Source: a bacterium (GTDB lineage: Bacteria; Hinthialibacterota; Hinthialibacteria; Hinthialibacterales; Hinthialibacteraceae). Taken from it: a stretch of DNA of 64,000 nt. The stretch is from contig CAXXMV010000006.1 of NCBI GenBank assembly GCA_963662285.2, positions 1,216,001 through 1,280,000 of the forward strand, written 5' to 3'. Each line of letters begins with the position of its first letter. Position 1 is the stretch's first letter. The notes under the pieces were generated by a model, which was not told where the DNA came from, ran no database searches, and saw nothing but the letters and a program-made list of their open reading frames with translations. Below, piece by piece: positions 4,618 to 61,377 of this stretch. Position numbers and translations under genes: made by a program.

Positions 4618-5592
4618 TTATGCGACTTTGGCCGCCATTTCAAATAATTTATTATACCGTCTCCGCATTCGAGTCATGCGAAACAGAGAGCGCCCTCCAC
4701 AGGAGACGAAATCCCACTTGTTTAATTTAGGACGGTTATCAAATACGTTATAGCCATTTTTTAATGTCCGCGAAAGGATGGTTACGCCGCCGAGCCAGGT
4801 GAAGCGCAACTCAGCCGACAGGGGCCAGCGTACGCTTTCCAGCAGGGGATAGCCTTCATCGAATAATTGCCAGGTACGCTGAACCAGTTCCTGCATGATA
4901 TTGATGTATCGTTCATCATAGACATGAGCGAATAGATCATCCATAGAATACCCGTTGGCCTGCATCAGTTCTTTGGGAATGTAGACGCGGTCTTTTTGAA
5001 GATCGATGGCTACATCCTGCCAGAAGTTGGTCAGTTGCAAGGCGGTGCAGATGCAGTCGGACATGTGGAACAGTTCCTCATCGCGGTAGTCGAACAGGTG
5101 GAGGATAAGGCGTCCCACCGGATCAGCGGAAAATCTGCAATAGTTTTTAATCACGCCGTCGAAGGTCTCGTAACGTTTTACAGTTACATCCTGCTTGAAA
5201 GCGTGCAACAAACCCCGGAACAGATCAATCGGAAGTTCGCATTTCTTGGCAGTATCGGCCAGAGCGATAAATACCGGGTGTTCGGCTTTACCTTCAAAAG
5301 CTTGTGATAGCAATTCATCCCATGAATTGAGATAATCCATGCGGCGGCCTTCGTAGCAATCTTCGTCAGAGAAATCGTCCGAAATGCGGGCGAAGGCGTA
5401 GATGGCGTAAACGTGAATCCGTTTGGCCTTGGGAACCAGCATTGATCCAACCGGAAAGTTTTCGTAGTGGGATACGGTCAGGCTCCGGCAGAAGGCATAG
5501 GAATCCTCCACCGACCAATCATCACGCAAAAGCTGATGAGGCAGGTTATACATCGAACAGATGGCATCTAATGTTGGTAGTTTTATGCCCAT
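4618..5592 (-). CDS. hpnC: Squalene synthase HpnC
   Basis: HYENFPVGS, IYAFARISDDFSDE, YCRFSADPVGRL and LQLTNFWQDV are characteristic of HpnC. Confidence 0.9.
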   Translation of the reverse strand: MGIKLPTLDAICSMYNLPHQLLRDDWSVEDSYAFCRSLTVSHYENFPVGSMLVPKAKRIHVYAIYAFARISDDFSDEDCYEGRRMDYLNSWDELLSQAFEGKAEHPVFIALADTAKKCELPIDLFRGLLHAFKQDVTVKRYETFDGVIKNYCRFSADPVGRLILHLFDYRDEELFHMSDCICTALQLTNFWQDVAIDLQKDRVYIPKELMQANGYSMDDLFAHVYDERYINIMQELVQRTWQLFDEGYPLLESVRWPLSAELRFTWLGGVTILSRTLKNGYNVFDNRPKLNKWDFVSCGGRSLFRMTRMRRRYNKLFEMAAKVA

Positions 5593-5705
5593 AATATTGA
5601 GATGTATGGTATCATAATAGATGGATTTACTCCAGCATCAGGTAATATTTGTGAAATTACCTGATAGTGATTTATTTTTCCCCTCACCATAGCGCCTGGA
5701 AATTT

Positions 5706-5797
5706 CGGGCGCCCACGAGGGGGGCGCCCTACTTTGGATAGGGGATTTGTTATCAGGAGTGGATTTTTGATGGGTCGGTAAGGCTGACCCATCCTAC
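5706..5797 (-). repeat. Two GTAG-type REP palindromes
   Basis: CGGGCGCCCACGAGGGGGGCGCCCTAC (5706-5732) and GATGGGTCGGTAAGGCTGACCCATCCTAC (ending 5797); both read GTAG+hairpin on the minus strand. Confidence 0.6.
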
Positions 5798-5816
5798 GCG
5801 TGAGTGGATTTACATT

Positions 5817-6377
5817 ATGGACGATCATGATTTTTCTTCAATAGAGCAGGCTTACCGTAATTCATCCAGAAGGGCGCCTCTTCCTCAGCCATCGCGGCGT
5901 ATGTTCGGCATTGATTTCATGTTTGTTATTTTATTTATGGTTGCAGGTTTTTATTTTGTGTGGCCTAAGATGTTTCAAACTCCCGAAGCTTATGCTCCTG
6001 AATCGGCGATTCATGAAACTCTGACGGTTTATTTGATGGCTCAAGGTTGTTGTATTGCAACCGAAGATTATGGTGACGAATCGAAATTTTCGGAGCAAAT
6101 CAAGCAGGCGTTGGAAGCGGTTCAGCCTAAAGGCTCCAAGGCGCCCAAAATATTGCTCATAGATGATTCGGGGAATCTTCTGGTTGGGGAAGAGGAATGG
6201 CCTGAAGCGTGGGAAAAAGCAAATCCTCCCTGGCAATACCGCAAAGCAGGCTCAATGATTTATCGCCTTAAAGGCAATGCTATTCTGATTTTTTTTGAAC
6301 CTATCGATGATAGGCAATTGACGCTGGTGGTTATTAAACGTTTTACGCCGATGTTTAAGGGTGATGGGAAGAGCTGA
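5817..6377 (+). CDS. Hypothetical single-pass membrane protein
   Basis: 186 aa ORF with one TM helix (FMFVILFMVAGFYFVW); no family recognised. Confidence 0.6.
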   Translation: MDDHDFSSIEQAYRNSSRRAPLPQPSRRMFGIDFMFVILFMVAGFYFVWPKMFQTPEAYAPESAIHETLTVYLMAQGCCIATEDYGDESKFSEQIKQALEAVQPKGSKAPKILLIDDSGNLLVGEEEWPEAWEKANPPWQYRKAGSMIYRLKGNAILIFFEPIDDRQLTLVVIKRFTPMFKGDGKS

Positions 6378-6433
6378 TTTGGTTATTCTTGGTGGGTTAT
6401 GCTATCGCTCCATCCTGTTTGTAGGCGTATTCA

Positions 6434-6469
6434 ATCAAGGACTGAGCGCAATGCGCTCAGTCCTTGGCG
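6434..6469 (+). repeat. Solo CAAGG(G/A)C-hairpin repeat
   Basis: ATCAAGGACTGAGCGCA-A-TGCGCTCAGTCCTTGGCG, a 15-bp perfect stem between convergent genes; variant of the dispersed family. Confidence 0.7.
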
Positions 6470-6501
6470 TTCGGCCCTAGATAGAAATATCAGAACAATA
6501 C

Positions 6502-9500
6502 TTATTTTGTTTTAACTGGATCTGCTGGTCGAGGAGGCAGTTTTCTAGGATATTCATCTATCTTTTTTAGGATTTCCTGGATTCCCTGCTCTAACTGAGG
6601 ATCCCGGCCTTTGAGTACTGATTCCGGATCATTATCGATTTCAATATCCGGATCTACCCCATAGCCCTCAATGATCCATTGGCCATTTTCATCATTGGTA
6701 CCACTTAACGGAACGAATACCTGCCCGCCGTCAAGCAAGGGGCCCCGTCCGGAGATTCCTACTACGCCACCCCAAGTTCGTTTACCAATCAACGGACCAA
6801 GACCTGCTTTGCGATAATAATATGGGAAAATATCACCGTCTGAAGCAGAGGTTTGGTTAATCAAACATACCGTATGACCGTGGAACACTGTGTAAGGATA
6901 GGTCTCCGGGTAGTTGCTGGAATTACCAAATCGCGTCCCCAGTAACTTTGTGTCTAGGCGTTCGATGATCCATTGAGACACATTCCCGCCGCCATTAGAG
7001 CGCACGTCAATGACAAGACCTTCCTTGCGGATTTGGGGATAAAACCATTTGATAAACTCATAGATGCCATTTGCGCCCATGTCCGGTATATGAAGGTAGC
7101 CAACCCGTCCATCAGTCAACTTAGCGACTTTTTCAAGATTCTCGCTAACCCACTCCAGATAGAGGAGATTATCTTCACTAAAGATCGGCTTAAATGTTAC
7201 TTCACTCGCATCCTTTATAGTAGGATTAGAATTAAGAGTAAGAGTTATTGGATCAGTTTTGTGCTGCAACAATCGATAAGGATTATCGTCGCCTTTCAAT
7301 TCAACTCCATCAATGGCGAGAATATAGTCGCCAACATTAGCCTCTATACCGATTTCGTTCAGGGGAGAAATGTATTTTTCCTCCTCATTATCGCCTTTGA
7401 ATATTTTCGAGATGCGATACCTTCCTGCTTCCTTATCCAATTCGAACCGGGCGCCCGGTAAGCCCACTTTGGGCCGTTCAGGAATCTCAAAATCTCCTCC
7501 GACAATATAACAATGCCCCGCACTTAGTTCAGACACCATTTCACTCAAAACATAGTTAAGGTCAGAACGATGAGCCACATGTTTTAGCCAGGTTCTATAT
7601 TGATCGCCTATTGCTTTCCAATCATACCCGTGCATATTTTTCACGTAGAAAAAGTCACGGTAGCGCCTCCAGACTTCGTTGAATATTTCCTCCCACTCTT
7701 GAGATGGAACGCGGTCCACCATCAGGCCTTTGGTCGAAACAGTCTTTTGATCCTTCGCTTCTGGTTTAGCATCGTATAAATGGTACGCTCCCTTTTGGCT
7801 TACCAATACTTTATTACCATCTGAAGAGAGAGCGTAACCAGACATATCTTCAACCAGTACTTTGTCTTCCCGTTTTTCCAGCGAATAAATATGAAGGTTC
7901 GATTTTTCGTAGCTGTCCCGGCCATAGAAAGGAGCGCCTGATGTCTTATAAATCAAGTAGCCTTTCTTTGCGGAAAGACTGCTAATGTTATTAGATTCTA
8001 TCGGCGCCCGGACAACCCGATCCGCGAGACCTAAATAATCAATTTCGATGTAATCTTTCTGCTTATCTTTCTTTTTATCTTCAGATTTATCCTTAGATTT
8101 CTCATCACTCTCATCACAGTCTTCGACTTTTTTATCAGTATCCTTGTCTTTATTCTCTTCTTTTTCTTCCTCGAAGGTTATTTCATCGTTTTCAGGCGGA
8201 AAAGGATGTTTAACGTCTTTACGCAGCGACAAGGCAAAAATGCCTGTTTGACGGTTCGTTGCAAAGTTCCACTCAAGGGAACTGATCTGCGGAGCAAAAT
8301 TGCGATCGGAGAGATAGTAGAGATAGTTGCCCTCAATACCCCACACTGGATTATATTCATCGAAATAGTCATCCGTGATTTTTGTTAGTTTACAATCATC
8401 AACGCTCCAGATATAAATAGAGCGGTATCTATTAGGATTTTGCATGGAGAAAGCCAAATGCCCGCCATTTTTGGACCAGACATAGTCTCTGATCATTCCA
8501 AACTCGTCGTCTGCGATTTGAACGATTGTTTTATCAGAGATGGTTAGCGCATAAAGTTTTCCGTTTTTATCGGAGAAAGCCAGCCGTTTTCCATCTGGAG
8601 ACCATTCCGGTGCGTATAGCATGGCTTTAAATTCGGTAGTAAGTTGTTCGGGTTTTCCGGCGCCATCCTGATCGATTAGATATAGCTGATCTTCGCCAGT
8701 CATGTCCGAAATAAAGGCGATCTTTTTACCATCCGGAGACCAACGCGCCCATTTATCGTGCGCATTGGAGGTATTGGTTAGATTTCGAGTAGTTCCTTTT
8801 TCGATAGGCGCGGTAAAGACATCTCCTCTTGCTACGAATAACGCTCGTTCACCTTTAGGACTAAGTTCGAAATCTTCAATGTTCTTCTCAGCCGAATAGC
8901 GGGATGGCCGCATAGCTAAACCGTCATCAGGCACTAAAATAGAAATCTTCTGATCCTGTCCGGATGTTGTATCGAAAATCTGAAGTTCACCGTTCAACTC
9001 ATATACGATTTTGTTTATATTATCTGAACTGGGCCAGCGAATATCCCACTTGGTGCTATGTGTAATTTGCGTTAATTCCCCGGAATCGACTTTGTAGTCG
9101 TATAGATTGAGCGTGCCGTCACGATCCGATGAGAAATAAATGGAATTACCGATCCACATGGGATCACGCTCGGAACGTTTGCTTGGGGCAATCTTTTTAG
9201 CCTCATACGTATTTAAGTCAAAAATGTAGAGATTCTGCGCCCAACCGCCTTCGTAACGCTTCCAAGTTCGAAAGTCGCGAAACAGAGGGGAGTAGACTAC
9301 TTTTTGGCCATCAGGTGAATAGTCTCCAGCGCCGGAGGTTGGCATCTGAAGTTTTTCCGGTAGACCGCCATCAGTACTTACGGTATACAAAGCCGTCAAC
9401 ACGCGACCGCCATTGGCGTCGCGAAGCGAGCGGAATAGAACTTTTTCGCCATCCGGCGTCCAACCATATACTTGGTTGTCGTATCCCCAACGCGGCGGTA

Positions 9501-9843
9501 ATGGTCCATGAGCGGGGTAATATGTGAGTTGCTTGGGGATGCCGCCTTCTGCGGGGATTACGTAAACTTGTTCGTCGCCATCATACTGTCCAGTAAACGC
9601 TATCCATTTACCGTCCGGTGAGAATTTAGGGAACAATTCTTGACCAGAATGAGCGGTAAGCCGCACCGCAATTCCCCCAACGCTATTTGCCTTCCATAAA
9701 TCCCCCCCATAACAGAATACTACCGTATCCTCATGAATGTCTGGAAACCGCAACAACTTTGTTTGAGCAGATACTATTTCTGTTGTGAATAGAACGCATA
9801 AAAAAAGCATAATCGAACATAGTATGGATTGACGTAAGCGCAT
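6502..9843 (-). CDS. Tricorn-like S41 family protease
   Basis: Signal peptide, PD40/TolB-like propeller repeats (FSPDGKW), PDZ-like region, DVRSNGGG, SASDGD catalytic motif, GKRTWGG and DPQL. Confidence 0.92.
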   Translation of the reverse strand: MRLRQSILCSIMLFLCVLFTTEIVSAQTKLLRFPDIHEDTVVFCYGGDLWKANSVGGIAVRLTAHSGQELFPKFSPDGKWIAFTGQYDGDEQVYVIPAEGGIPKQLTYYPAHGPLPPRWGYDNQVYGWTPDGEKVLFRSLRDANGGRVLTALYTVSTDGGLPEKLQMPTSGAGDYSPDGQKVVYSPLFRDFRTWKRYEGGWAQNLYIFDLNTYEAKKIAPSKRSERDPMWIGNSIYFSSDRDGTLNLYDYKVDSGELTQITHSTKWDIRWPSSDNINKIVYELNGELQIFDTTSGQDQKISILVPDDGLAMRPSRYSAEKNIEDFELSPKGERALFVARGDVFTAPIEKGTTRNLTNTSNAHDKWARWSPDGKKIAFISDMTGEDQLYLIDQDGAGKPEQLTTEFKAMLYAPEWSPDGKRLAFSDKNGKLYALTISDKTIVQIADDEFGMIRDYVWSKNGGHLAFSMQNPNRYRSIYIWSVDDCKLTKITDDYFDEYNPVWGIEGNYLYYLSDRNFAPQISSLEWNFATNRQTGIFALSLRKDVKHPFPPENDEITFEEEKEENKDKDTDKKVEDCDESDEKSKDKSEDKKKDKQKDYIEIDYLGLADRVVRAPIESNNISSLSAKKGYLIYKTSGAPFYGRDSYEKSNLHIYSLEKREDKVLVEDMSGYALSSDGNKVLVSQKGAYHLYDAKPEAKDQKTVSTKGLMVDRVPSQEWEEIFNEVWRRYRDFFYVKNMHGYDWKAIGDQYRTWLKHVAHRSDLNYVLSEMVSELSAGHCYIVGGDFEIPERPKVGLPGARFELDKEAGRYRISKIFKGDNEEEKYISPLNEIGIEANVGDYILAIDGVELKGDDNPYRLLQHKTDPITLTLNSNPTIKDASEVTFKPIFSEDNLLYLEWVSENLEKVAKLTDGRVGYLHIPDMGANGIYEFIKWFYPQIRKEGLVIDVRSNGGGNVSQWIIERLDTKLLGTRFGNSSNYPETYPYTVFHGHTVCLINQTSASDGDIFPYYYRKAGLGPLIGKRTWGGVVGISGRGPLLDGGQVFVPLSGTNDENGQWIIEGYGVDPDIEIDNDPESVLKGRDPQLEQGIQEILKKIDEYPRKLPPRPADPVKTK

Positions 9844-10010
9844 GGCTTCTCCTTTAATTCAGTAAATTAAATAATATTTTAGTCCTGTGAAAAACAATTA
9901 AACTGACTGGTATTATATATTTAATAGTCGCTGTCTTTATAGACGTAATATTGAATAAAATTACAGAGTTGTAAGGTCTCTACAGAACAATAGGTTTAAC
10001 ATAATGGTTT

Positions 10011-10053
10011 ATCAAGGGCGGAAAATACGGAAAATACACTGCCCTTGGCGTCC
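10011..10053 (+). repeat. Solo copy of the array core hairpin
   Basis: ATCAAGGGCGGAAAATACGGAAAATACACTGCCCTTGGCG: the core of the 12.3-13.8 kb array with a duplicated GGAAAATAC in the loop. Confidence 0.75.
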
Positions 10054-10072
10054 AACTTAAGGTGTATAAAAT

Positions 10073-10111
10073 CCCCCCTCGCCCTAGCCCTCTCCCGCCG
10101 GGAGAGGGGAC
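10073..10111 (+). repeat. BoxC-like CCCTC...CTCTCCC/GGGAGAGGG palindromic repeat
   Basis: CCCCCCTCGCCCTAGCCCTCTCCCGCCGGGAGAGGGGAC; relatives at 42850-42887 (+) and 49681-49718 (-). Confidence 0.7.
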
Positions 10112-10123
10112 TTTGGATTGATT

Positions 10124-10957
10124 CTATTTTAAGCCTTCCGGTAGGATTAAGCCTGATGGGGGTATGGTTAGTTCGGAGCGCAGCTGGGTGTGGTTTTGCG
10201 TGTCGCCTCCGGTTTGCAGGAAAAAGCGCAGTGCTGTGGTGATTCCGGCGTCAATGTTGAGCGTCGGGGTATTATCGGCTGTGAATCGTGCGCGGCTTAG
10301 TGATACCCAATCGCCGTCCACCGTTTTGACCCAGCCGCCGCCGTATTCTGCATTTCTTACTTGAGTCGCGCTGAGGCCATTGCGCCGGAAATCTTCCACA
10401 AAGCAATAATACCCTTTCAGATACTCTCCGCCGGTAGTGGTTTGGAAACTCGCTAAATGCTTCCACGCCTGTGATTCATTTAAGAAAAAATAAGCGGAAT
10501 AAGTGGTGTGTTCACCATCAACTTTGGCATGGACCAGGCATTTGTACGTCTCGTCCACTTTCCACTGATAGGGGAACATGCTTTTGCCGCCGGTTCCTTC
10601 ATTGCCGAAACGGCTGATGCGTACGCCTTCGCCATTGTGTAACACTTTCACCCGGCGGTCTTCTTCTACTGAGTTGGGATCATTTTGTTTTCCGGGATCC
10701 CAGACGGAAAAGATAACCACTTTATCTTCGGGAGAACGAATTTCTTGAATGCCGAAATACCCATGCCGGAATCCACACACGGAAAAATAGGTTCCAGGAT
10801 GAGACTCTTTTACAGTGACTTCATTGTAGTAGATGCTGCCATCCGGCGCCGGGAACCATAAATGCACCGACCGCGCCGCTTTTGGTTTTTCTTCTTGGGC
10901 TTGAATAGATGATGAAACGAAGAATAAAACCAGTGAAATAATTATTACGCTTTTCAT
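10124..10957 (-). CDS. Secreted DUF3472-like protein
   Basis: Signal peptide from MKSVII (10957; upstream starts to 11005 possible). ARSVHL, GYFGIQE, IFSVWD, FGNEGTGG and FVEDF motifs. Confidence 0.7.
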   Translation of the reverse strand: MKSVIIISLVLFFVSSSIQAQEEKPKAARSVHLWFPAPDGSIYYNEVTVKESHPGTYFSVCGFRHGYFGIQEIRSPEDKVVIFSVWDPGKQNDPNSVEEDRRVKVLHNGEGVRISRFGNEGTGGKSMFPYQWKVDETYKCLVHAKVDGEHTTYSAYFFLNESQAWKHLASFQTTTGGEYLKGYYCFVEDFRRNGLSATQVRNAEYGGGWVKTVDGDWVSLSRARFTADNTPTLNIDAGITTALRFFLQTGGDTQNHTQLRSELTIPPSGLILPEGLK

Positions 10958-11231
10958 ACGGATTGATTGTAAGTTTATCATGTTAAATTGATTATCATTA
11001 AACAAAGTTTAATGCTCTTTCTATGGATAATATGAAACGACATTTTAGTCGAAATAAATCTTTACCCAATCTCTAGTGTAGGGATTAAACTTGCTATATT
11101 TGCAACATGAATCATCTGACTGAATCCTTGACTGAATCCGCTATTATGAGAAAATTAATACTAATCCGGTAAACGGGTATATTTTACCTGTCAAATTTGA
11201 ATATCCCGGACGATAAAGAAAGGAAATAGTT

Positions 11232-12224
11232 ATGAAAAGAAATATTTTGTTGTGCTGCTTATTGTTGATTGCCATGGTTAGTGGATGGAGCGCTCCGAGT
11301 GATATTGTGTGGACCGATGATGTTGCTAATAACCCAGTGATTATTGAGCCGGGTTTGACCGAAGCCAACCGGGCCTACTATGCGACAGTTATATTTGATC
11401 CATACGCCAATATCTGGCGGGCCTGGTTCGACGCCAGCAGCGGCGCGGATGTGGCATACGGCCAGTCTTCTGATATCGATGGCATCAACTGGGGCGACTA
11501 TGCTCTATGTCAGGGATTCACCGAATCGTTTAAGCAGAGCAAAGCCTTTGTTATTCAATTAGGTGAAAACTTGTTTCGCATGTGGTATACCGCTGATGAC
11601 CGTCTTGGAGGATATTTTATCAACACTTGCGAATCAACCGATGGCGTAAACTGGACCAATGATCAATGGACGCTGGGCATCGCCGAGCCGGATGCAGCTA
11701 CCTATGGCCCCATTGAACGGTTCACCGCCGTTCGTTTGGAAGACGGAAGTTTTGTCGCTTACGTTCGTTGTGAAGAACCGGAAATCGAAGGAACTGTTGA
11801 AGGCGTAAAACTGCTGTACCGTTATACCTCAGATGACGGCATACAGTGGACCTGGACCAATGATACATTGGTTAACGGCGTTGAGGGATTGGAAGGCATC
11901 GAATTTTCATCGGTTGTTAAACATCCGGATAAAGCAGGCGTGTGGTACGCCTGGGGGAATCCCGCAAATTCATCTGGACCGTTTCAGTCTTTTGTTTCAG
12001 TTGATGACGGCCTGACTTTTACGCTTGACGAGAATCCTGTTTTGGACATCGGTGAACTGGGAACTCAATCCTATAACGTTGACCGCAACTATCATCCCAG
12101 CGCTACTTATATGGGTGATGGCAATTGGGTTATGTTCCGTACTGTGGCCGAACCTAAAGGAACCGCTATAGCAACTGGAATTGAACAAATCGATACTGGT
12201 TTGAATGCGTGGGAATTATATTAA
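11232..12224 (+). CDS. Secreted beta-propeller (glycoside hydrolase / sialidase-like) protein with C-terminal WELY tail
   Basis: Signal peptide, repeated Asp-box-like SxDGxxW motifs (SDIDGINW, STDGVNW, SDDGIQW, SVDDGLTF) and NPV repeats. Confidence 0.6.
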   Translation: MKRNILLCCLLLIAMVSGWSAPSDIVWTDDVANNPVIIEPGLTEANRAYYATVIFDPYANIWRAWFDASSGADVAYGQSSDIDGINWGDYALCQGFTESFKQSKAFVIQLGENLFRMWYTADDRLGGYFINTCESTDGVNWTNDQWTLGIAEPDAATYGPIERFTAVRLEDGSFVAYVRCEEPEIEGTVEGVKLLYRYTSDDGIQWTWTNDTLVNGVEGLEGIEFSSVVKHPDKAGVWYAWGNPANSSGPFQSFVSVDDGLTFTLDENPVLDIGELGTQSYNVDRNYHPSATYMGDGNWVMFRTVAEPKGTAIATGIEQIDTGLNAWELY

Positions 12225-12252
12225 ACGCAAAAATGTTTCATCGTAAATTAAA

Positions 12253-12284
12253 GACGGGGCGTTGATTATTGCGCCCCGTTTTTT
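12253..12284 (+). terminator. Intrinsic terminator
   Basis: ACGGGGCG...CGCCCCGT followed by a T-tract, about 30 bp after the stop at 12224. Confidence 0.75.
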
Positions 12285-12313
12285 CGTTTAGGGGGAAAAA
12301 TGAAATCGGAAGT

Positions 12314-13798
12314 GGAAGTGATAGCATCAAGGGCAGAAAATACACTGCCCTTGCCACCCTTCTTGCTCTTGGCGCTCGTCTTGCTCTTGGAACTCGTCGG
12401 AAGTGATAGCATCAAGGGCAGAAAATACACTGCCCTTGCCACCCGTCTTGCTCTTGGCGCTCGTCTTGCTCTTGGAGCTCGTCGGAAGTGATAGCATCAA
12501 GGGCAGAAAATACACTGCCCTTGCCACCCTTCTTGCCCTTGGCGCCTGTCTTGCTCTTGGAGCTCGTCGGAAGTGATAGCATCAAGGGCAGAAAATACAC
12601 TGCCCTTGGCGCTCGTCTTGCTCTTGGAGCTCGTCGGAAGTGATAGCATCAAGGGCAGAAAATACACTGCCCTTGCCACCCGTCTTGCCATTGGCGCCTG
12701 TCTTGCTCTTGGAGCTCGTCGGAAGTGATAGCATCAAGGGCAGAAAATACACTGCCCTTGCCACCCGTCTTGCCCTTGGCGCTCGTCTTGCTCTTGGCGC
12801 TCGTCTTGCTCTTGGAGCTCGTCGGAAGTGATAGCATCAAGGGCAGAAAATACACTGCCCTTGCCACCCGTCTTGCCCTTGGCGCTCGTCTTGCTCTTGG
12901 AGCTCGTCGGAAGTGATAGCATCAAGGGCAGAAAATACACTGCCCTTGCCACCCGTCTTGCCATTGGCGCTCGTCTTGCTCTTGGAGCTCGTCGGAAGTG
13001 ATAGCATCAAGGGCAGAAAATACACTGCCCTTGCCACCCGTCTTGCCCTTGGCGCCTGTCTTGCTCTTGGAGCTCGTCGGAAGTGATAACATCAAGGGCA
13101 GAAAATACACTGCCCTTGCCACCCGTCTTGCCCTTGGCGCTCGTCTTGCTCTTGGAGCTCGTCGGAAGTGATAGCATCAAGGGCAGAAAATACACTGCCC
13201 TTGCCACCCGTCTTGCTCTTGGCGCCTGTCTTGCTCTTGGAGCTCGTCGGAAGTGATAGCATCAAGGGCAGAAAATACACTGCCCTTGCCACCCGTCTTG
13301 CCCTTGGCGCCTGTCTTGCTCTTGGAGCTCGTCGGAAGTGATAGCATCAAGGGCAGAAAATACACTGCCCTTGCCACCCGTCTTGCCCTTGGCGCCTGTC
13401 TTGCTCTTGGAGCTCGTCGGAAGTGATAGCATCAAGGGCAGAAAATACACTGCCCTTGCCACCCTTCTTGCCCTTGGCGCTCGTCTTGCTCTTGGAACTC
13501 GTCGGAAGTGATAGCATCAAGGGCAGAAAATACACTGCCCTTGCCACCCGTCTTGCCCTTGGCGCTCGTCTTGCTCTTGGAACTCGTCGGAAGTGATAGC
13601 ATCAAGGGCAGAAAATACACTGCCCTTGGCGCCCGTCTTGCTCTTGGCGCCTGTCTTGCTCTTGGAGCTCGTCGGAAGTGATAGCATCAAGGGCAGAAAA
13701 TACACTGCCCTTGCCACCCGTCTTGCCCTTGGCGCTCGTCTTGCTCTTGCCACCCGTCTTGCCCTTGGCGCTCGTCTTGCTCTTGGCGCCTGTCTTGC
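12314..13798. repeat. Hierarchical tandem repeat array, 17 units (mostly 85 bp)
   Basis: Unit starts (GGAAGTGATA): 12314, 12399, 12484, 12569, 12636, 12721, 12824, 12909, 12994, 13079, 13164, 13249, 13334, 13419, 13504, 13589, 13674. Each unit is a 32-bp head plus 2-4 copies of an ~18-bp subrepeat and carries the hairpin CAAGGGCAG-8nt-CTGCCCTTG. Confidence 0.95.
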
Positions 13799-13838
13799 GG
13801 GCGCCTAAAGTCGCCTTGGATATGGGATAGTATTGTAA

Positions 13839-15290
13839 TTAACCTTTAGAGGCGATTAATGCGCAGGCTTCATCGATGATCTCTGAGATGTGGCCGGTTT
13901 GGCTGGTTGCGTTGCCCAGGAAAGAGAATAGATAGGTTTTACCGCTTTTGGCATTGATCAGGCCGGATAAAGATCGAGAACCGTTGAGCGTACCGGTTTT
14001 GGCGAAAACCCGCTTATAGGCCGCTGTATCCCGCATGCGTTGTTTCAAGGTTCCACTCACGCCGGCCTGGGGGAGGGAATTAAAGAACAACTTTGATTGG
14101 GGTGATTTTCTAACTGATTGCAAGATGGCTATTATAGCGTTGGCGCTTAAGCGATTCTCGCGGGATAAACCGGAACCGTCAGCGAAATAAACGCCATCCA
14201 GTTTGCAGCCATGTTCGGTCAGGATGTCTTTTACCGCCGCCACTCCCATGGGCCAACTGCCCTGGCCGTATTCAGCGTATCCCAGGGTCTTGATAAAATG
14301 TTCGGCGTAAAGGTTCTGACTGTTTCGTAGGCAAACTTCAACCAGCTGCTTTAGTGGAGGAGATTTATAAACGTCAATCTTTTTCCATTGGTTACGCTCT
14401 TTCAATAAAATATCATCTCCATCAACCGGATCGCCTTTGACAGTTACTCCTTCTTTTTGCAAAGTCTCCTTAAGCACCGTAGCGAAAAACAGGGTTGGAT
14501 TGGGTACCGAAGCATAGATTGTTGATGAACGTTTGGCGCGAATGGTTCCCTTAACCTGAAGAGCGGTCTCTTTAGGATTACGTACTATTTCGACGCCTTT
14601 ATCAGATTTTCTGGTTTTGACAGTTTTTACTGAAGGTATGAGTTGAATGTATTTGGTAGGTGGATTAAGGGATAATTCAGCTGGTTTACCAGAGGCGTCG
14701 GATCCCTTGATTAAAATATCTATGCAGCCGTCGTTGAACGAGAGTGCGCTTATTTCAGCTGCATACCATTCTACTAAATCTATTGGATTCCAGTTTAATC
14801 CATGCGGTATGTCATCAAATACATCGTCAACTCCGATGATATCTCCCTGGATTGATTTGATTCCTTTTCTTTTTAGCAGCTCAGCCCATAGACGGAACTG
14901 ATAAGTAACATCTCCATTGTTGAATCTACCGCCGATGCTGGGATCGCCGGAACCGGTGATGATCAAATTACCATACAGGGTAGAACCTTCAATAGAACCG
15001 GTATGGAAGAGCGAAGTTTGATAGATGTATTCCGGACCAAGTTTGAGCAGAATGGCTGCGCAGATGGGAATTTTCTCATTTGATGCAGGAATTAATGTCC
15101 GGTGGGGAGTGATCTCGAATAGTTTGTCTGCGCTGTTGGCATTCTCGACCGAAACGCTCCAGACATAAGAAGGCTGCGTCTTGAAGAGAGTTGTAAGTTC
15201 TTCCTTCAAAGACGCAGCCGAAGATATGACATTATTGGTAAATAAGATCAGGCAGACGGTTATAAAATAAATTCGCTTTATCATTTGCAA
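13839..15290 (-). CDS. dacB: D-alanyl-D-alanine carboxypeptidase/endopeptidase (PBP4, peptidase S13)
   Basis: PASNEK (SxxK), GSGDP, SQN (SxN), DGSGLSRENR and AKTGTL (KTG) motifs. Confidence 0.9.
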   Translation of the reverse strand: MQMIKRIYFITVCLILFTNNVISSAASLKEELTTLFKTQPSYVWSVSVENANSADKLFEITPHRTLIPASNEKIPICAAILLKLGPEYIYQTSLFHTGSIEGSTLYGNLIITGSGDPSIGGRFNNGDVTYQFRLWAELLKRKGIKSIQGDIIGVDDVFDDIPHGLNWNPIDLVEWYAAEISALSFNDGCIDILIKGSDASGKPAELSLNPPTKYIQLIPSVKTVKTRKSDKGVEIVRNPKETALQVKGTIRAKRSSTIYASVPNPTLFFATVLKETLQKEGVTVKGDPVDGDDILLKERNQWKKIDVYKSPPLKQLVEVCLRNSQNLYAEHFIKTLGYAEYGQGSWPMGVAAVKDILTEHGCKLDGVYFADGSGLSRENRLSANAIIAILQSVRKSPQSKLFFNSLPQAGVSGTLKQRMRDTAAYKRVFAKTGTLNGSRSLSGLINAKSGKTYLFSFLGNATSQTGHISEIIDEACALIASKG

Positions 15291-15356: not shown

Positions 15357-17885
15357 TTAGTTCATGCTCATCTGGCCGCTCGCCGCTGGAGTATCCACTT
15401 TTTCCTCAATTACATTCTTAAGAGAATGACTTTCAATATCCATTAAGGCGTTAACTGTTTCACTCTCTTTATTGGTGATATTGATTGCGTTGATTGTCTG
15501 AACGCGGGGGCCATATTCGATGTTATACATATAGTTCATAAGTGATTTATAGTCTGCATCAATATCCATGGTCAAAGAACGTTTGATGTAATAATCCTGT
15601 CCTGAATCTTCTTGAGCCTTATTGAATTTTTCGATGACTTCAGGTGGGATCAAATCATCCTTGAAATATTTCTGGTATGTTTTGTACTTTTCGACCATAT
15701 CAATAATAGTGCGAACTACAACCATCTTTTCATCTATTGTAAGTTTGGCGTCTGCTTCAACTTTTGCGGGATCAGCATCAGGGCTTAGTTCAGTCCAGAA
15801 TAGATCGCCGATCTGCATAGCTTTTTGTCGGATTCCGAGATCGGTTGTATCGGCGTCGCGGAACATGCTCATCAAGCCGCTGCCGCCTCCCATACCGCCC
15901 ATACCCATGCCCATCATGCCCATGCCCATACCACCGCCCATGCCCATGCCGCCCATGCCCATGCCGCCCATGCCCATGCCCATCATGCCCATGCCCATAG
16001 CGCCGCCGCCGGCCCAGTCATATTTGACCAGATAATTATTTTCACTCATGAGTTCGGCTTGGAGTTCTCCACGTTCACTTTTAAACGAATCTTCCAATTC
16101 TTTATCGACCACGTTGTAGCCATGACCTTTGTAGATAATCTGGTTGATGCTGATCACATTATCGTTGATCGCTTGTTGGGCCAAGTCATAGCACAAGCGT
16201 TGAAATTCGACGATTTGGTGAAGTAGAAGAGAATCATTTTTCATGATTTCATCATCAACCTGGAAAATAGGAATTAAATCAGCGAAACTTTTGCCGGTAT
16301 TTTGACGGATAAAATCAAGTACATAGAGTTCACGAATTGTTCTGGTAGTTTTGTCTGATGCCAGGAACTGGTCATTGATGCCCAGCGAATGCTTTAACAT
16401 GGTGTAGGTTTTTTCGTAAACTTCACGGATCGCCGGATTAATTGTTCCGATACTTTTTTGCTTTTGATATTGAGCAATTTCCAACAGTAATTGAGGCAAT
16501 TCTTTTGCTTCGGGCAATTCATCCTCGAAATGATCGAGGTAAGTGGTTGATTCGTTAGCCTGGATTTCAGCGCTAGGCTGGGGGCTGATGTTCGGGCGAT
16601 TTTGGATGCGTAAGTCATCAAATGTACAATCAGCGGCGAATCCACCTTCTTCGTCTGTTCCCAAATAAACTCCGGTAACAACTGAAGGTAAAGAAATATT
16701 AGTGGTCAGAGCCGTACCAGCTGTAGGACCCATTGATCCCATACCGCCGCCCATGCCCATGCCGCCCATGCCCATGCCGCCCATACCCATGCCGCCCATG
16801 CCCATGCCGCCCATACCCATCATGCCCATACCCATGCCCATCATGCCCATACCCATGCCGCCCATGCCATATCCACCGCCGCCTCCGCTGAAGAGAGAGT
16901 CTTCTTCGAGGTCGCGGGCGTCGCGGATGGATTGTCCACCGCCGTAGGGTACGCCGCGGTTCTGGCCGTTAATGTATAGAGCCTGGCGTTTCCCTTCCCA
17001 GATAGCATTGATGTGATACCACTGTCCTTTTTTCCAGTCAGAGATATAAGCCGTGACGATGCTGGGAGGTTTTACGTAATCGCGTAATTCAAAACTCAGT
17101 GTGGCGCCTTCGCCCTTATAGATGGCAATCATACTGTCACGAGCGAATGGGCCAGGACCCACAGGCAGCATCTGGTTTATGTTCATTCTTTCAAACATGG
17201 AATTGCTGGTATCCTGGCTTTCCTGGTCAGTTTCCATGCGAAGTTTGATTTGATCGCGGGTGAACTTACGTGAATCAAGGGCCATAAAGAGGCATTTATG
17301 ATGAATTTCAGTGTCTGAAGGATCCCAATCAGGTTTGACGAAAAACTCTAAGGAACCTTGGCGTGGATTAATAACCTGGTGAGTTTGTACATTGGCGTAA
17401 GCGATTGCGCGGCCATTGCTGGCTTTGAATCCTGTGCCGAAGCGGCCTTCGGTGATGCCGCCGCCAACTTCCCAGGAACTGCTTACGGTTAGTTTGGTTG
17501 TTTTGCTTTCTTCTTCAACCTTTTTCATGCGAACGATTTGATTGATAACTTCGTCGCGATAATTTATCGAAGGATCGAAGCGTTCGATGATTTTTACTTT
17601 CTTGTCTAAATCATTGAATCCATTTCTGGCTGTATTTATCTTATCTTGAATAACTTTGATGACTTTATCGGCTTGAGTGGGGAGAGATTCATTGGTTGAG
17701 ATGCTAGAATCGCCCTCTTTTTTAATCTGAGAAACGATGGTTTTATATGTTCGCGAAAGGCCTTGCAACTTTTCATTATACTCTTTGTATTGCTTTTGCT
17801 TTGGAGCGAATACATACAGATGCATTCCTGCAACGACAACTGCGGCGATGATAATCGCAATAATTGCTTTAACTTTTTTACCCAT
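15357..17885 (-). CDS. Bitopic membrane protein: PilO/GspM-like termini, LamG-like insert and two Gly-Met tracts
   Basis: N-terminal TM plus coiled coil. QGSLEFFVKPDW...GQWYHINAIW...LYING...FDDLRI is LamG/concanavalin-like. C-terminal DADYKSLMNYMYNIEYGPRVQTINAINI is PilO-like. (MG)n repeats at ~15880-16010 and ~16740-16880. Confidence 0.55.
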   Translation of the reverse strand: MGKKVKAIIAIIIAAVVVAGMHLYVFAPKQKQYKEYNEKLQGLSRTYKTIVSQIKKEGDSSISTNESLPTQADKVIKVIQDKINTARNGFNDLDKKVKIIERFDPSINYRDEVINQIVRMKKVEEESKTTKLTVSSSWEVGGGITEGRFGTGFKASNGRAIAYANVQTHQVINPRQGSLEFFVKPDWDPSDTEIHHKCLFMALDSRKFTRDQIKLRMETDQESQDTSNSMFERMNINQMLPVGPGPFARDSMIAIYKGEGATLSFELRDYVKPPSIVTAYISDWKKGQWYHINAIWEGKRQALYINGQNRGVPYGGGQSIRDARDLEEDSLFSGGGGGYGMGGMGMGMMGMGMGMMGMGGMGMGGMGMGGMGMGGMGMGGGMGSMGPTAGTALTTNISLPSVVTGVYLGTDEEGGFAADCTFDDLRIQNRPNISPQPSAEIQANESTTYLDHFEDELPEAKELPQLLLEIAQYQKQKSIGTINPAIREVYEKTYTMLKHSLGINDQFLASDKTTRTIRELYVLDFIRQNTGKSFADLIPIFQVDDEIMKNDSLLLHQIVEFQRLCYDLAQQAINDNVISINQIIYKGHGYNVVDKELEDSFKSERGELQAELMSENNYLVKYDWAGGGAMGMGMMGMGMGGMGMGGMGMGGGMGMGMMGMGMGGMGGGSGLMSMFRDADTTDLGIRQKAMQIGDLFWTELSPDADPAKVEADAKLTIDEKMVVVRTIIDMVEKYKTYQKYFKDDLIPPEVIEKFNKAQEDSGQDYYIKRSLTMDIDADYKSLMNYMYNIEYGPRVQTINAINITNKESETVNALMDIESHSLKNVIEEKVDTPAASGQMSMN

Positions 17886-26906: not shown

Positions 26907-26946
26907 ATCAAGGGCTGAGCGCAATGCGCTCTTGCCCTTGGCACCC
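26907..26946 (+). repeat. Solo CAAGGGC-hairpin repeat
   Basis: ATCAAGGGCTGAGCGCAATGCGCTCTTGCCCTTGGCACCC. Confidence 0.75.
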
Positions 26947-33846: not shown

Positions 33847-34205
33847 GTAGGGTGCGCCTCTTGTGGGCGCCCGTAATTTTCAATCGCCCTTTGTGTTGAA
33901 TTTGAATTATTATAGTTCGTGAGTGGCTCAGGGCGCCCATGAAAGACGCCCCTACGGGTTTGGTTTGGATAGAGGTTTTAATAAAACCGTAGGTGGCAGC
34001 ATCAAGGGCTGACCGCGATGCGGTCTTGCCCTTGGCACCCGTTAATCGCCCTTTGTGTTGAATTTGAATTATTATAGTTCGTGAGTGGCTCAGGGCGCCC
34101 ATGAAAGACGCCCCTACGGGTTTGGTTTGGATAGAAGTTTTAATAAAACCGTAGGTGGCAGCATCAAGGGCTGACCGCTATGCGGTCTTGCCCTTGGCGC
34201 CCGTC
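33847..34205. repeat. BIME-like mosaic: GTAG-REP plus a 162-bp direct duplication
   Basis: GTAG-REP (+) at 33847. Units 33882-34043 and 34044-34205 each contain an inverted GTAG-REP (CAGGGCGCCCATGAAAGACGCCCCTAC) and a CAAGGGC hairpin (34001, 34163). Confidence 0.85.
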
Positions 34206-36181: not shown

Positions 36182-36390
36182 GCGTGGGTGGTGTTTGGTG
36201 GGCTACGCTATCGCTTTTAGCCCACCCTACGCGTGGGTGATGTTTGGTGGGCTACGCTATCGCTTTTAGCCCACCCTACGCGTGGGTGATGTTTGGTGGG
36301 CTACGCTATCGCTTTTAGCCCACCCTACGCGTGGGTGGTGTTTGGTGGGCTACGCTATCGCTTTTAGCCCACCCTACGCGTGGGTGGTGT
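36182..36390 (-). repeat. Tandem array of 4 x 49-bp GTAG-REP units
   Basis: Units at 36182, 36231, 36280 and 36329 plus a partial copy. Minus strand reads GTAGGGTGGGCTAAAAGCGATAGCGTAGCCCACC. Confidence 0.9.
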
Positions 36391-42740: not shown

Positions 42741-42780
42741 ATCAAGGGCTGACCGCAATGCGGTCTTGCCCTTGGCGCCC
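42741..42780 (+). repeat. Solo CAAGGGC-hairpin repeat
   Basis: ATCAAGGGCTGACCGCAATGCGGTCTTGCCCTTGGCGCCC. Confidence 0.75.
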
Positions 42781-49800: not shown

Positions 49801-50007
49801 GGGTAAGGCGGGTGGCAAGGGCAGTGTATTTTCTGCCCTTGATTGAGTTCACCTCATTTATTTCCATAGTTTTTATCAACAATCCACGTTGAAGGTAGAA
49901 TGAAATTCAATTTTTTGTGCTTGTAAATGGATTATAAATAATCAAGGTTCTTTTTGTTTTTCCAAAGTTTTCAGTCAAGGGCAGAAAGGACACTGCCCTT
50001 GGCACCC
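49801..50007. repeat. Inverted pair of array-core hairpins (REPIN/MITE-like)
   Basis: 49801-49843 matches the reverse complement of an array unit at 41/43 nt; 49974-50007 is a plus-strand copy; about 130 bp of AT-rich spacer lies between them. Confidence 0.7.
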
Positions 50008-59162: not shown

Positions 59163-59218
59163 CAATCGTACGTAGTAGCATCAAGGGCTGACCGCATTGC
59201 AGTCTTTCCCTTGGCGCC
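59163..59218 (+). repeat. CAAGGGC-hairpin repeat (copy A1)
   Basis: CAATCGTA-N9-ATCAAGGGCTGACCGCATTGCAGTCTTTCCCTTGGCGCC; partner copy at 61284-61339. Confidence 0.75.
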
Positions 59219-61221: not shown

Positions 61222-61377
61222 ATAATGGCTAATCGATTCGGTGGGTAAAAAAGCGCGACACACCCTACGGATATGAAAACTCACAATCGTATGTGATTGA
61301 ATCAAGGGATGACCGCATTGCAGTCTTGCCCTTGGCGCCCGCTAATCGATTCGGTGGGTCAAAAAGCGGGACCCACC
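61222..61377. repeat. Repeat cluster B2-A2-B3
   Basis: B2 at 61222-61270, A2 at 61284-61339 and B3 at 61341-61377 (GCTAATCGATTCGGTGGGTCAAAAAGCGGGACCCACC). Confidence 0.8.

What the first reader, a model, noticed from the sequence alone, without database searches (positions are those of the whole stretch)
12314..13798. 1.5-kb hierarchical hairpin array, CRISPR-like in layout but without unique spacers or cas genes
Seen: 17 units. Fourteen are 85 bp, one is 67 bp, one is 103 bp, and the last has an extended tail, so length changes come in exact 18-bp steps. The head GTCGGAAGTGATAGCATCAAGGGCAGAAAATACAC is almost invariant (one substitution, in unit 10) and is followed by 2-4 subrepeats TGCYCTTG(G/C)NRCYYGTC(T). 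The first subrepeat closes a perfect 9-bp hairpin with the head, and every later subrepeat is an alternative partner for the same CAAGGGCA arm. Variation is confined to a few recurring subrepeat alleles (GCGCTCG/GCGCCTG, CCCTT/CTCTT/CCATT, GGAG/GGAA), which looks combinatorial and suggests recombination or conversion. The array is non-coding (85 is not a multiple of 3) and sits after a terminator between convergent genes. Inference: an amplified REP/BIME locus, a repeated structured RNA read from dacB readthrough, or a multivalent protein-loading site on DNA.
Basis: partly seen in the sequence, partly recalled or inferred. Interest (0 to 1): 0.72.

Follow-up and report, generated by a model that had tools for sequence, protein, structure and literature searches.

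The report
Tandem array of REP hairpin repeats
The 1.5-kb run of 17 near-identical units is a locally amplified copy of a selfish hairpin repeat (a REP element) that is scattered about 400 times through this genome and flanks its own transposase genes, so it is an unusually large repeat cluster of a known kind and not a new CRISPR-like system.

Summary
Window 12314-13798 has 17 head-to-tail units (14 of 85 bp, one of 67, one of 103, a last one of 125), and length changes come in 18-bp steps.

The array is not a stand-alone system. Its 9-bp-stem hairpin plus GCACCC/CCACCC tail is a dispersed repeat: 404 tailed hairpins lie outside the array, and 94% of them are outside long open frames. The hairpin flanks three genes that score as REP-associated tyrosine transposases (RAYTs; NF047646, 102-111 bits against a cut-off of 80). 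It also forms 37 inverted REPIN/MITE-like pairs that keep the ends of the RAYT gene.

The array head matches the 5' flank of the REP beside the third RAYT, and the 18-bp subrepeat matches that REP's 3' arm plus tail. Thirteen same-orientation REP clusters of three or more occur in this genome, and this one is the largest.

No array lies downstream of dacB in 12 same-family genomes. Rfam gives nothing, and no RNA data exist.

Best reading: a young REP-derived minisatellite that grows and shrinks by slippage or unequal exchange. Comparable tandem REP arrays are described in Pseudomonas fluorescens SBW25 (PMC3116915). Interest is low to moderate.

The parts
12314..13798 (+). Tandem array of 17 units. 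Each unit is a 32-nt head containing the 5' arm and loop of a REP hairpin, followed by 2-5 subrepeats of 18 bp. The first subrepeat supplies the 3' arm and tail; the later ones are reiterated arm+tail copies.
12306..13798 (.). Array including the partial extra head TCGGAAGT (12306-12313) at its left edge. The flank AATCGGAAGT matches the 5' flank of single copies elsewhere in the genome.
12328..12353 (+). First REP hairpin of the array (CAAGGGCAG, 8-nt loop, CTGCCCTTG). The same 26-mer recurs in each of the 17 units.
12250..12285 (+). Terminator-like hairpin plus T-run after the upstream + gene. On the - strand the same stem is followed by a weaker U-rich stretch.
   Evidence: RNA fold -29.6 kcal/mol, z -5.7 on +; -16.1, z -2.5 on -; not listed by the simple scan
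11232..12224 (+). Upstream convergent gene, 330 aa, no Pfam family.
13839..15290 (-). Convergent gene for a D-Ala-D-Ala carboxypeptidase of family S13 (dacB-like). Its stop lies 40 nt from the array with no structured element between them.
   Evidence: PF02113, E 5e-81; 13790-13845 fold z +0.55
49816..50001 (.). REPIN/MITE-like inverted pair of the same REP family, with tails pointing outward. Its interior keeps the ends of the RAYT gene.
10013..10047 (+). Single REP hairpin of the same family with a duplicated loop segment.
26909..26940 (+). Single REP of the long-stem subtype (REP-2: outer stem CAAGGGC/GCCCTTG with an inner stem).
34003..34196 (+). Two direct REP-2 copies 162 bp apart.
42743..42774 (+). 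Single REP-2 copy.
59182..59213 (+). Single degenerate REP-2 copy.
61303..61334 (+). Single degenerate REP-2 copy.

Best explanation
The array is a REP-derived minisatellite. One copy of a repetitive extragenic palindrome landed in the gap between two convergent genes, together with its 5' flank and a short run of reiterated '3' arm + tail' half-sites, and was then amplified head-to-tail to 17 units.

The REP belongs to a family that this genome maintains with its own HUH/Y1 transposases (RAYTs). RAYTs act on the hairpin in single-stranded DNA.

Shown: the identity of the parts, the genome-wide family, the RAYT link, and the existence of sister arrays.

Inferred:
- Amplification and the 18-bp and 85-bp length changes arise by slipped-strand mispairing or unequal exchange between the many direct repeats. 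The fact that any later subrepeat can pair with the single 5' arm would help this.
- Units are homogenised by conversion.
- The array has no dedicated function. At most it has the side effects ascribed to REPs: hairpins in the long 3' tail of the dacB-like transcript if that transcript reads through to the shared terminator, and extra RAYT binding sites.
For: 1. Dispersed family. The 26-nt hairpin core occurs 201 times at up to 3 mismatches, 184 of them outside the array, and 0 times for the reversed control. With a looser hairpin+tail pattern, 404 copies lie outside the array.

2. Extragenic. Only 26 of those 404 copies (6.4%) fall in stop-free frames of 150 codons or more, which cover 86% of the genome.

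3. Hairpin maintained. Stem pair 7 shows 36 double (compensatory) changes against 2 broken pairs in 184 copies. Relatives carry the CCAGGGCA/TGCCCTGG variant.

4. RAYT link.
- Three 185-189-aa genes score 101.9-110.6 bits on NCBIfam NF047646 (REP-associated tyrosine transposase, cut-off 80).
- Their best solved relative is E. coli TnpArep 4ER8 (E 8e-9). The HUH histidines and the Tyr matching Y115 align.
- REP hairpins of this family lie on both sides of each gene. The inverted, tails-outward pair is intact only at L012. L013's left one is a hairpin-less remnant, and L014 carries the REP-2 subtype.
- RAYT homologues of 52-63% identity in 5 of 5 examined relatives' loci are flanked by related hairpins with a GGGTGS/GGGTAC tag.

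5. Non-autonomous derivatives. There are 37 inverted tails-outward doublets. Their interiors keep the first and last 50-75 nt of the RAYT gene region, which is repeated 12-63 times against 2-3 times for the gene body.

6. Origin of the unit. The head AATCGGAAGTGATAGCAT matches the 5' flank of the REP-2 copies beside RAYT L014, and the 18-bp subrepeat matches that REP's 3' arm plus tail. Two single copies with the same head exist at C2:1604126 and C3:122479. The C2 copy carries degenerate subrepeats.

7. Half-site reiteration is general. Outside the array, 28 orphan arm+tail sites lie within 80 nt downstream of a full hairpin.

8. Sister arrays. Eight of 46 tandem arrays (period 30 or more, 3 or more copies) contain this hairpin, and 13 of 19 REP clusters of size 3 or more are uniformly direct. 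This array is the largest.

9. Young and local. Heads are identical in 16 of 17 units. No REP-like hairpin and no long array lies within 1.5 kb downstream of dacB in 12 of 12 same-family genomes; one of these had only 167 nt available.

10. Mosaic alleles. Four site pairs show all four haplotypes.

11. Precedent. Tandem arrays of evenly spaced same-orientation REPs are described in P. fluorescens SBW25 (PMC3116915, passages read). [quoted passage not shown]
Against: - No genome of the same genus is held, so copy-number change between strains, which is the direct sign of a minisatellite, was not seen.
- Nothing here shows which process made the units. Slippage, unequal crossing-over and RAYT-mediated cutting and joining all predict the same layout.
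- The array is not next to a RAYT gene.
- The canonical GTAG tag is absent. The stem abuts GGGTGC/GGGTGG on the complementary strand.
- Copy number rests on one assembly. Public contigs break at the array edges.
- Lack of function is an assumption. Transcription, protein binding and effects on the dacB-like gene are untested.
Confidence: 0.8

Rival explanations
1. The RAYT made the array. In this reading the HUH enzyme nicks at the foot of the hairpin in single-stranded DNA. Repeated strand transfer, or re-priming from the 3'-OH, then reiterates first the arm+tail half-site (18-bp steps) and then whole units (85-bp steps). The array would be a footprint of transposase 'stutter' and not of general recombination.
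For: - HUH enzymes leave a 3'-OH that can prime replication or attack another site. The authors of PMC8266576 (passages read) say both routes might disseminate REP/BIME sequences.
- Half-site reiterations start at the tag and end at the arm at 28 other hairpins.
- Thirteen same-orientation clusters exist in a genome with three intact RAYT genes.
- 193 of 296 collapsed REP sites (65%) have the tail-reading strand on the locally G-rich strand. This could reflect replication-coupled activity.
Against: - No cleavage site is known for this family, and no conserved dinucleotide at unit junctions was established.
- (REP-spacer)n-REP arrays are equally predicted by unequal exchange between two direct REPs.
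- Array orientation against GC skew is only 8 of 13, and skew is noisy on contigs C1 and C2.
- The array is far from any RAYT gene.
Confidence: 0.2
2. The array is a functional RNA element. The dacB-like gene has no terminator of its own, so its transcript runs through the array to the shared terminator. The 17 hairpins would then protect or regulate that mRNA, or sponge an RNA-binding protein.
For: - No structured element lies between the dacB-like stop and the array (z +0.55).
- The only terminator-like hairpin is beyond the array at 12250-12285.
- REPs have been proposed to act in mRNA stabilisation and termination (PMC3733652 abstract). They are also reported as 3'UTR regulators in E. coli (bioRxiv 10.64898/2026.03.23.713779, search listing only).
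Against: - No Rfam family matches. All 9 matches have E of 0.6 or more and are eukaryotic models.
- Units fold little better than shuffles (z -1.0 to -1.4 for three of four units as DNA; z -2.0 for three units as RNA).
- No array or REP-like hairpin lies within 1.5 kb downstream of dacB in any of 12 same-family genomes.
- Same-orientation REP clusters with other unit lengths lie at 12 other loci.
Confidence: 0.1
3. The array is a multivalent protein-loading site on duplex DNA, as proposed for E. coli BIMEs (nucleoid proteins, gyrase).
For: - The array offers 17 phased identical sites between convergent genes.
Against: - No evidence of any kind was obtained here.
- Orientation is uniform and not alternating as in BIMEs.
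- The array is not conserved.
Confidence: 0.05
4. The array is an assembly artefact: a few units inflated by mis-assembly.
For: Public contigs of the two holder runs end at 12343 and restart at 13760, and none spans the array.
Against: - Unitigs unique to variant units (for example 12771-12813 and 13607-13661) are present with 0 differences.
- Unitig depth relative to the flanks scales with assembled copy number: 1 copy gives 0.5-0.9, 3 copies give 1.4-2.6, and 4 copies give 2.9-4.6.
- The units differ in length and alleles, which anchors an assembly.
Confidence: 0.03

Closest known systems
Tandemly repeated REP arrays of Pseudomonas fluorescens SBW25 (Bertels & Rainey 2011, PMC3116915; passages read)
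   Same: Both have evenly spaced REP hairpins, all in one orientation, repeated with their intervening DNA, in a genome that also has REPIN doublets and three RAYT genes. Both are described as more frequent than chance and of unknown mechanism.
   Different: - Copies: 17 here, against 12 in SBW25's largest arrays.
- Unit length: 85 bp here, against 72/112-bp spacings in SBW25.
- Intervening DNA: here it consists of reiterated half-REPs in 18-bp steps.
- REP sequence and tag: these differ; the tag here is GGGTGS, not GTAG.
- Lineage: an uncultured one here, whose phylum I did not determine.
BIMEs and REPtrons of E. coli and relatives (PMC8266576 passages; PMC2817692 search-listing abstract)
   Same: Both involve extragenic palindromes clustered between genes and associated with a TnpArep/RAYT gene flanked by the same palindromes. 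In both, the enzyme's HUH and Tyr residues are conserved.
   Different: BIMEs pair REPs in alternating orientation, whereas the array is uniformly direct. The GTAG tetranucleotide essential in E. coli is not present here.
MITEs and IS200/IS605-type elements
   Same: The dispersed inverted pairs have hairpin ends and keep the terminal 50-75 nt of the RAYT gene region, like internally deleted non-autonomous copies.
   Different: The array itself is not an inverted-repeat element. No target-site duplication or mobility was examined.
CRISPR arrays
   Same: Both have a constant palindromic repeat alternating with a segment of similar length.
   Different: The variable segment here is built from the repeat's own 3' arm, not from unique spacers. 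There is no leader, and no cas domains occur in the six neighbours scanned.

Membership tests
REP (repetitive extragenic palindrome) | Short palindromic unit (20-50 nt) able to form a stem-loop | tested here: met
   The hairpin has a 9-bp perfect stem and an 8-nt loop and dominates the folds on both strands. Stem pair 7 has 36 compensatory against 2 broken pairs in 184 copies.
REP (repetitive extragenic palindrome) | High copy number dispersed over the genome | tested here: met
   184 core matches at up to 3 mismatches and 404 tailed hairpins lie outside the array; reversed-pattern controls give 0.
REP (repetitive extragenic palindrome) | Extragenic placement | tested here: met
   26 of 404 copies (6.4%) lie inside stop-free frames of 150 codons or more, which cover 86% of the genome. 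This is an ORF proxy, not a gene annotation.
REP (repetitive extragenic palindrome) | Conserved 5' tetranucleotide, 'most often GTAG' (PMC8266576) | tested here: not met
   The stem abuts GGGTGC/GGGTGG (GGGTAC in two relatives) on the complementary strand, and no GTAG is present. A separate GTAG-tagged family exists in the same genome.
REP (repetitive extragenic palindrome) | Cognate RAYT gene flanked by the same palindromes (REPtron) | tested here: met
   All three RAYT loci have REP hairpins of this family on both sides. The inverted pair is intact at L012, partly degraded at L013, and of the REP-2 subtype at L014. The same holds in 5 of 5 relatives' loci examined.
RAYT / TnpArep (for the associated genes) | Curated family score, HUH motif and catalytic Tyr | tested here: met
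   NF047646 scores are 107.2, 110.6 and 101.9 bits against a cut-off of 80. The alignment to 4ER8 pairs PEHAHF with PEHMHC and the Tyr of NYCHMNPV with Y115. Y115 as the catalytic residue is taken from PMC8266576.
BIME | Regularly spaced REPs in alternating orientation | tested here: not met
   All 17 hairpins of the array are in the same orientation.
REPIN | Two REPs in inverted orientation forming one long hairpin | tested here: not met
   This is not met for the array. It is met elsewhere in the genome by 37 tails-outward doublets.
Tandem REP array (as in SBW25) | Evenly spaced REPs of one orientation repeated with their spacer | tested here: met
   Spacings are 85 bp, with the exceptions of 67 and 103 bp. 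There are 12 further uniformly direct clusters in the genome.
CRISPR | Unique spacers and linked cas genes | tested here: not met
   The 'spacers' are 2-5 copies of the repeat's own arm with a few recurring alleles. The six flanking proteins have no cas domain. The rest of the window was not scanned for cas.
Any Rfam RNA family | Covariance-model match at or near the gathering score | tested here: not met
   All 9 matches have E of 0.6 or more, score 17.5-22.7 bits against gathering scores of 45 or higher, and are eukaryotic models.

The most novel reading that the evidence does not exclude
The array and the 28 shorter half-site runs elsewhere are footprints of RAYT catalysis. In this reading the enzyme nicks at the hairpin foot on single-stranded DNA and, by repeated strand transfer or re-priming, reiterates the arm+tail module and then whole units. 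This genome would then show directly how an HUH transposase builds ordered direct arrays from a single palindrome. That is the 'second mechanism' of REP cluster formation left open by Bertels & Rainey, and a possible route by which repeat arrays of the CRISPR type first arise.
Probability: 0.15. Interest if true: 0.55.

Novelty: new variant of a known kind. Interest (0 to 1): 0.3.

Why it matters
The finding matters mainly as a clarification. A striking 'hierarchical hairpin array' turns out to be the largest cluster of a REP/RAYT system, so it should not be pursued as a new defence-like or RNA system.

The genome is nevertheless a good natural case for studying how REP clusters form:
- It has three intact RAYT paralogues.
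- It has about 400 REPs.
- Its MITE-like pairs still carry the ends of the RAYT gene.
- It has 13 same-orientation arrays with different unit lengths.
- It shows a recurrent reiteration of half-REPs, which I did not find described in the passages I read.

If the half-site steps map to RAYT cleavage sites, that would give a mechanism for ordered REP arrays, which PMC3116915 left unexplained.

Tried and rejected
- Rfam scan with permissive filters on 11000-15000: only chance-level eukaryotic models.
- Coding reading: ORFs of 60-78 aa overlap in all frames, and 85 is not a multiple of 3. Rejected.
- CRISPR reading: rejected.
- Promoter and terminator scan on 11900-14100: 0 promoter-like and 0 terminator-like sites. 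The hairpin at 12250-12285 was not listed, but it folds strongly.
- Exact 39-nt head+hairpin in metagenome and genome collections: 0 hits each. The window's own genome may be left out of these scans.
- The 26-nt core in the same collections: 2 contigs of one MAG and 20 contigs of one metagenome, each with a single copy and no array. The metagenome contigs are about 80-90% identical to this genome's genes. The one nearest the array (L030) ends before the array side, and I did not ask for more of that record because of the stated half-record limit.
- RNA evidence: no RNA holder listed.
- Laid contigs: no contig spans the array.
- Orthologous locus: dacB was found in 21 of 21 genomes. No REP-like hairpin or long array was seen in 12 of 12 same-family downstream regions, and synteny is not conserved.
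- Replication-strand test for arrays: 8 of 13 on the G-rich strand, not informative.
- Atlas look-up of the RAYT confirmed the family but gave no usable taxonomy. The phylum was not determined.
- Sigma-54 idea: by eye the subrepeat TGGCGC-N5-TTGC has the GG-N10-GC spacing of -24/-12 promoters. This was not tested, and I treat it as a by-product of the 18-bp periodicity.
- Integron attC and Xer-site readings were considered by eye only. No matching consensus was seen and neither was tested.
- Earlier findings of this scan: nothing on this genome fitted.
Full report
OBSERVATION

- Tandem Repeats Finder gives period 85, 16.9 copies, 91% matches and score 2121 for 12314-13749. It also gives a 170-bp reading (score 2395) and many 18-bp sub-arrays out to 13798.
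- Cutting at the head gives 17 units: 14 of 85 bp, unit 4 of 67 bp, unit 6 of 103 bp, and unit 17 of 125 bp with an extended run of subrepeats.
- The 32-nt head is identical in 16 of 17 units.
- CAAGGGCAG in the head and CTGCCCTTG in the first subrepeat form a 9-bp stem with an 8-nt loop. This is the main element of the predicted folds on either strand.
- ORFs inside the array are 60-78 aa and overlap in all frames.
- The array sits between a + gene of 330 aa without a Pfam family (11232-12224) and a convergent Peptidase_S13, dacB-like gene (13839-15290, - strand). The + gene is followed by a strong hairpin plus T-run at 12250-12285.

THE HAIRPIN IS A GENOME-WIDE REPEAT

The window is part of contig C6 of a 7.29-Mb, 8-contig genome.
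- The 26-nt hairpin core occurs 201 times at up to 3 mismatches, 184 of them outside the array. The reversed control gives 0.
- A looser pattern (hairpin with 8-30 nt between the arms, plus the tail GCACCC, GCGCCC or CCACCC) finds 404 copies outside the array. Only 26 of them (6.4%) fall in stop-free frames of at least 150 codons, which cover 86% of the genome.
- The stem is kept through change. Pair 7 is C:G in 146 copies and T:A or A:T in 36, with 2 broken. These counts are of copies, not of independent events.
- Two subtypes share the outer stem. REP-1 has an 8-nt loop, as in the array. REP-2 has an extra inner stem.

LINK TO TRANSPOSASES

A search of the genome with Pfam Y1_Tnp gives six matches. 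Three of them are open frames of 185-189 aa.
- They score 107.2, 110.6 and 101.9 bits on NCBIfam NF047646, 'REP-associated tyrosine transposase' (cut-off 80).
- The best solved relative is E. coli TnpArep, 4ER8 (E 8e-9). In that alignment the HUH histidines and the tyrosine corresponding to Y115 are conserved. Y115 is the catalytic residue according to PMC8266576, of which I read passages.
- REP hairpins of this family lie on both sides of each gene. At L012 they form an intact inverted pair with tails pointing outward. At L013 the left one is a hairpin-less remnant with a second REP inserted beside it. At L014 they are of the REP-2 subtype.
- Elsewhere, 37 doublets have the same tails-outward geometry. 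Alignments of 10 + 10 such pairs give MITE-like elements of roughly 190-260 bp.
- The 50-75 nt just inside each hairpin of the RAYT loci are repeated 12-63 times in the genome, against 2-3 times for the gene body. The pairs therefore look like internally deleted copies of the RAYT element.
- In related genomes, RAYT homologues of 52-63% identity (G001, G002, G003, G011, G016) are flanked in 5 of 5 loci by related hairpins with the same kind of tag (GGGTGS or GGGTAC) and with compensated stem variants.
- The exact core at up to 3 mismatches is found in 3 of 18 other same-family genomes, with 14-18 copies each.

WHERE THE UNIT COMES FROM

- The head AATCGGAAGTGATAGCAT matches the 5' flank of the REP-2 copies beside the third RAYT (L014).
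- The 18-bp subrepeat matches that REP's 3' arm plus tail.
- Two single copies with the same head exist at C2:1604126 and C3:122479. The C2 copy is followed by degenerate subrepeats.
- Reiteration of the arm+tail module is not peculiar to the array. Outside it there are 659 such half-sites against about 74 expected from composition. Of these, 410 close a hairpin and 249 are orphans, and 28 orphans lie within 80 nt downstream of a complete hairpin, in runs of one to three.

SISTER ARRAYS

- Of 46 tandem arrays in the genome with period 30 or more and 3 or more copies, 8 contain this hairpin. Their periods are 85/170, 89, 133, 133, 140, 143, 202 and 264, with 96-99% unit identity in most.
- Clustering the 420 tailed hairpins at under 300 bp gives 215 singlets and 56 doublets (37 inverted tails-outward, 18 direct, 1 tails-inward). 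It also gives 19 clusters of three or more, 13 of which are uniformly direct.
- The array under study is the largest. The next have 9 and 7 hairpins.
- Several arrays have the form (REP-spacer)n-REP.

AGE AND CONSERVATION

- No other species of the genus is held.
- dacB homologues were found in 21 of 21 genomes searched. In the 12 same-family loci examined, the 1.5 kb downstream (167 nt in one case) holds no REP-like hairpin and no long tandem array, and the neighbouring genes differ.
- One metagenome holds a relative about 80-90% identical in its genes, with 20 single REPs at various loci. None of its contigs reaches the array side of this locus.
- The near-identity of the heads, together with mosaic subrepeat alleles (four site pairs with all four haplotypes among the 14 units of 85 bp), fits recent amplification with exchange between units.

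ASSEMBLY CHECK

Two public runs of one sample hold the stretch.
- Their short-read contigs stop at 12343 and resume at 13760.
- Unitigs specific to variant units are present without differences.
- Unitig depth relative to the flanks (0.5-0.9, 1.4-2.6, 2.9-4.6) follows the 1, 3 or 4 copies in the assembly.

This speaks against a gross artefact. It is not independent of the assembly's likely source, and it does not fix the number 17.

TRANSCRIPTION AND STRUCTURE

- Rfam gives only chance-level matches.
- The simple scan finds no promoter-like site in 11900-14100.
- There is no structured element between the dacB-like stop and the array (z +0.55). On the - strand the only terminator-like hairpin lies beyond the array. 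Read-through of the dacB-like transcript is therefore plausible but untested.
- Single units fold little better than shuffled controls, apart from the REP stem itself.
- No RNA run was listed.

HOW IT MOST LIKELY WORKS

Shown: the array is built from one REP of a RAYT-associated family plus reiterated copies of that REP's own arm and tail, and the same genome has a dozen similar direct arrays.

Inferred: the many direct repeats at 18-bp and 85-bp spacing promote slipped-strand mispairing and unequal exchange. The ability of any subrepeat to pair with the one 5' arm adds to this. Together these would explain the length steps, the mosaic alleles and the homogeneity. I put 0.8 on this identity and general mechanism.

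A more specific rival is that the RAYT itself generates the reiterations by nicking and strand transfer or re-priming (0.2). It is compatible with the half-site runs and with a modest strand bias: 193 of 296 collapsed sites have the tail strand on the locally G-rich strand. Neither observation requires it. That IS200/IS605-type enzymes prefer the lagging-strand template is recalled, not checked here.

A dedicated RNA role (0.1), a DNA-scaffold role (0.05) and an artefact (0.03) are less likely.

COMPARISON WITH WHAT IS KNOWN

- Bertels & Rainey (PMC3116915, passages read) describe 'tandemly repeated REP sequences' in P. fluorescens SBW25. These are ordered arrays of same-orientation REPs, up to 12 per array, in a genome with REPIN doublets and three RAYTs. 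The authors note that such clusters imply a second, unknown mechanism.
- Di Nocera et al. [quoted passage not shown]
- The array differs from a BIME, which has alternating orientation. It lacks the GTAG tag. Its intervening DNA is itself a run of half-REPs.
- A full-text search for the two stem 9-mers together returned only unrelated papers among the 10 of 20 that were listed. I therefore found no description of this particular REP family. I did not run a search for half-REP reiteration as such.

VERDICT

The array is a new variant of a known kind, of low to moderate interest.

Noticed in passing
window 36197-36374 (- strand): Four tandem copies (49-bp period) of a second, GTAG-tagged palindrome (GTAG-GGTGGGC ... 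GCCCACC). This family has 112 copies genome-wide and also forms a 142-bp x 5 array at C6:1209722-1210433, just upstream of the window. No Y1 transposase hit lies within 1.5 kb of any copy near the three other Y1 loci checked.
   Followed up: partly
window 49816-50001 and about 36 similar pairs genome-wide: MITE/REPIN-like inverted pairs keep the first and last 50-75 nt of the RAYT gene region, so they look like internal-deletion derivatives of a once-mobile RAYT element.
   Followed up: partly
L013:1262-1330 (G000:C8, left flank of the second RAYT): The expected inverted REP is reduced to tag plus flank (GGGTGCCA joined to TTGATTGAATCC) with the hairpin gone, and a second REP is inserted beside it. 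This may be a hairpin-deletion or excision footprint.
   Followed up: no
whole genome G000: REP orientation is biased with local GC skew. 193 of 296 collapsed sites have the tail-reading strand on the G-rich strand. Skew is noisy on contigs C1 and C2, and gene orientation was not controlled.
   Followed up: partly
window 12354-13798, and MITE ends genome-wide: By eye, the subrepeat TGGCGC-N5-TTGC and many REP tails (TTGGCACCC-N2-ATTG) resemble the -24/-12 spacing of sigma-54 promoters. This was not tested and is probably a by-product of the repeat's periodicity.
   Followed up: no
window 15897-15998: A degenerate GCCCAT hexamer run (about 19 copies) lies inside the 842-aa gene, which has weak PilO and Laminin_G_3 matches.
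   Followed up: no
L030 (metagenome contig) against window 5174-11073: In an approximately 85%-identical relative, the DUF3472 gene is followed by a REP and then by sequence matching window 5174-6409. The match skips the tricorn-like protease gene (window 6502-9843) present here.
   Followed up: no
G000:C8:889332-890248: The closest sister array: 89-bp units x 7, followed by two more REPs. Each spacer also contains an orphan arm+tail half-site.
   Followed up: partly
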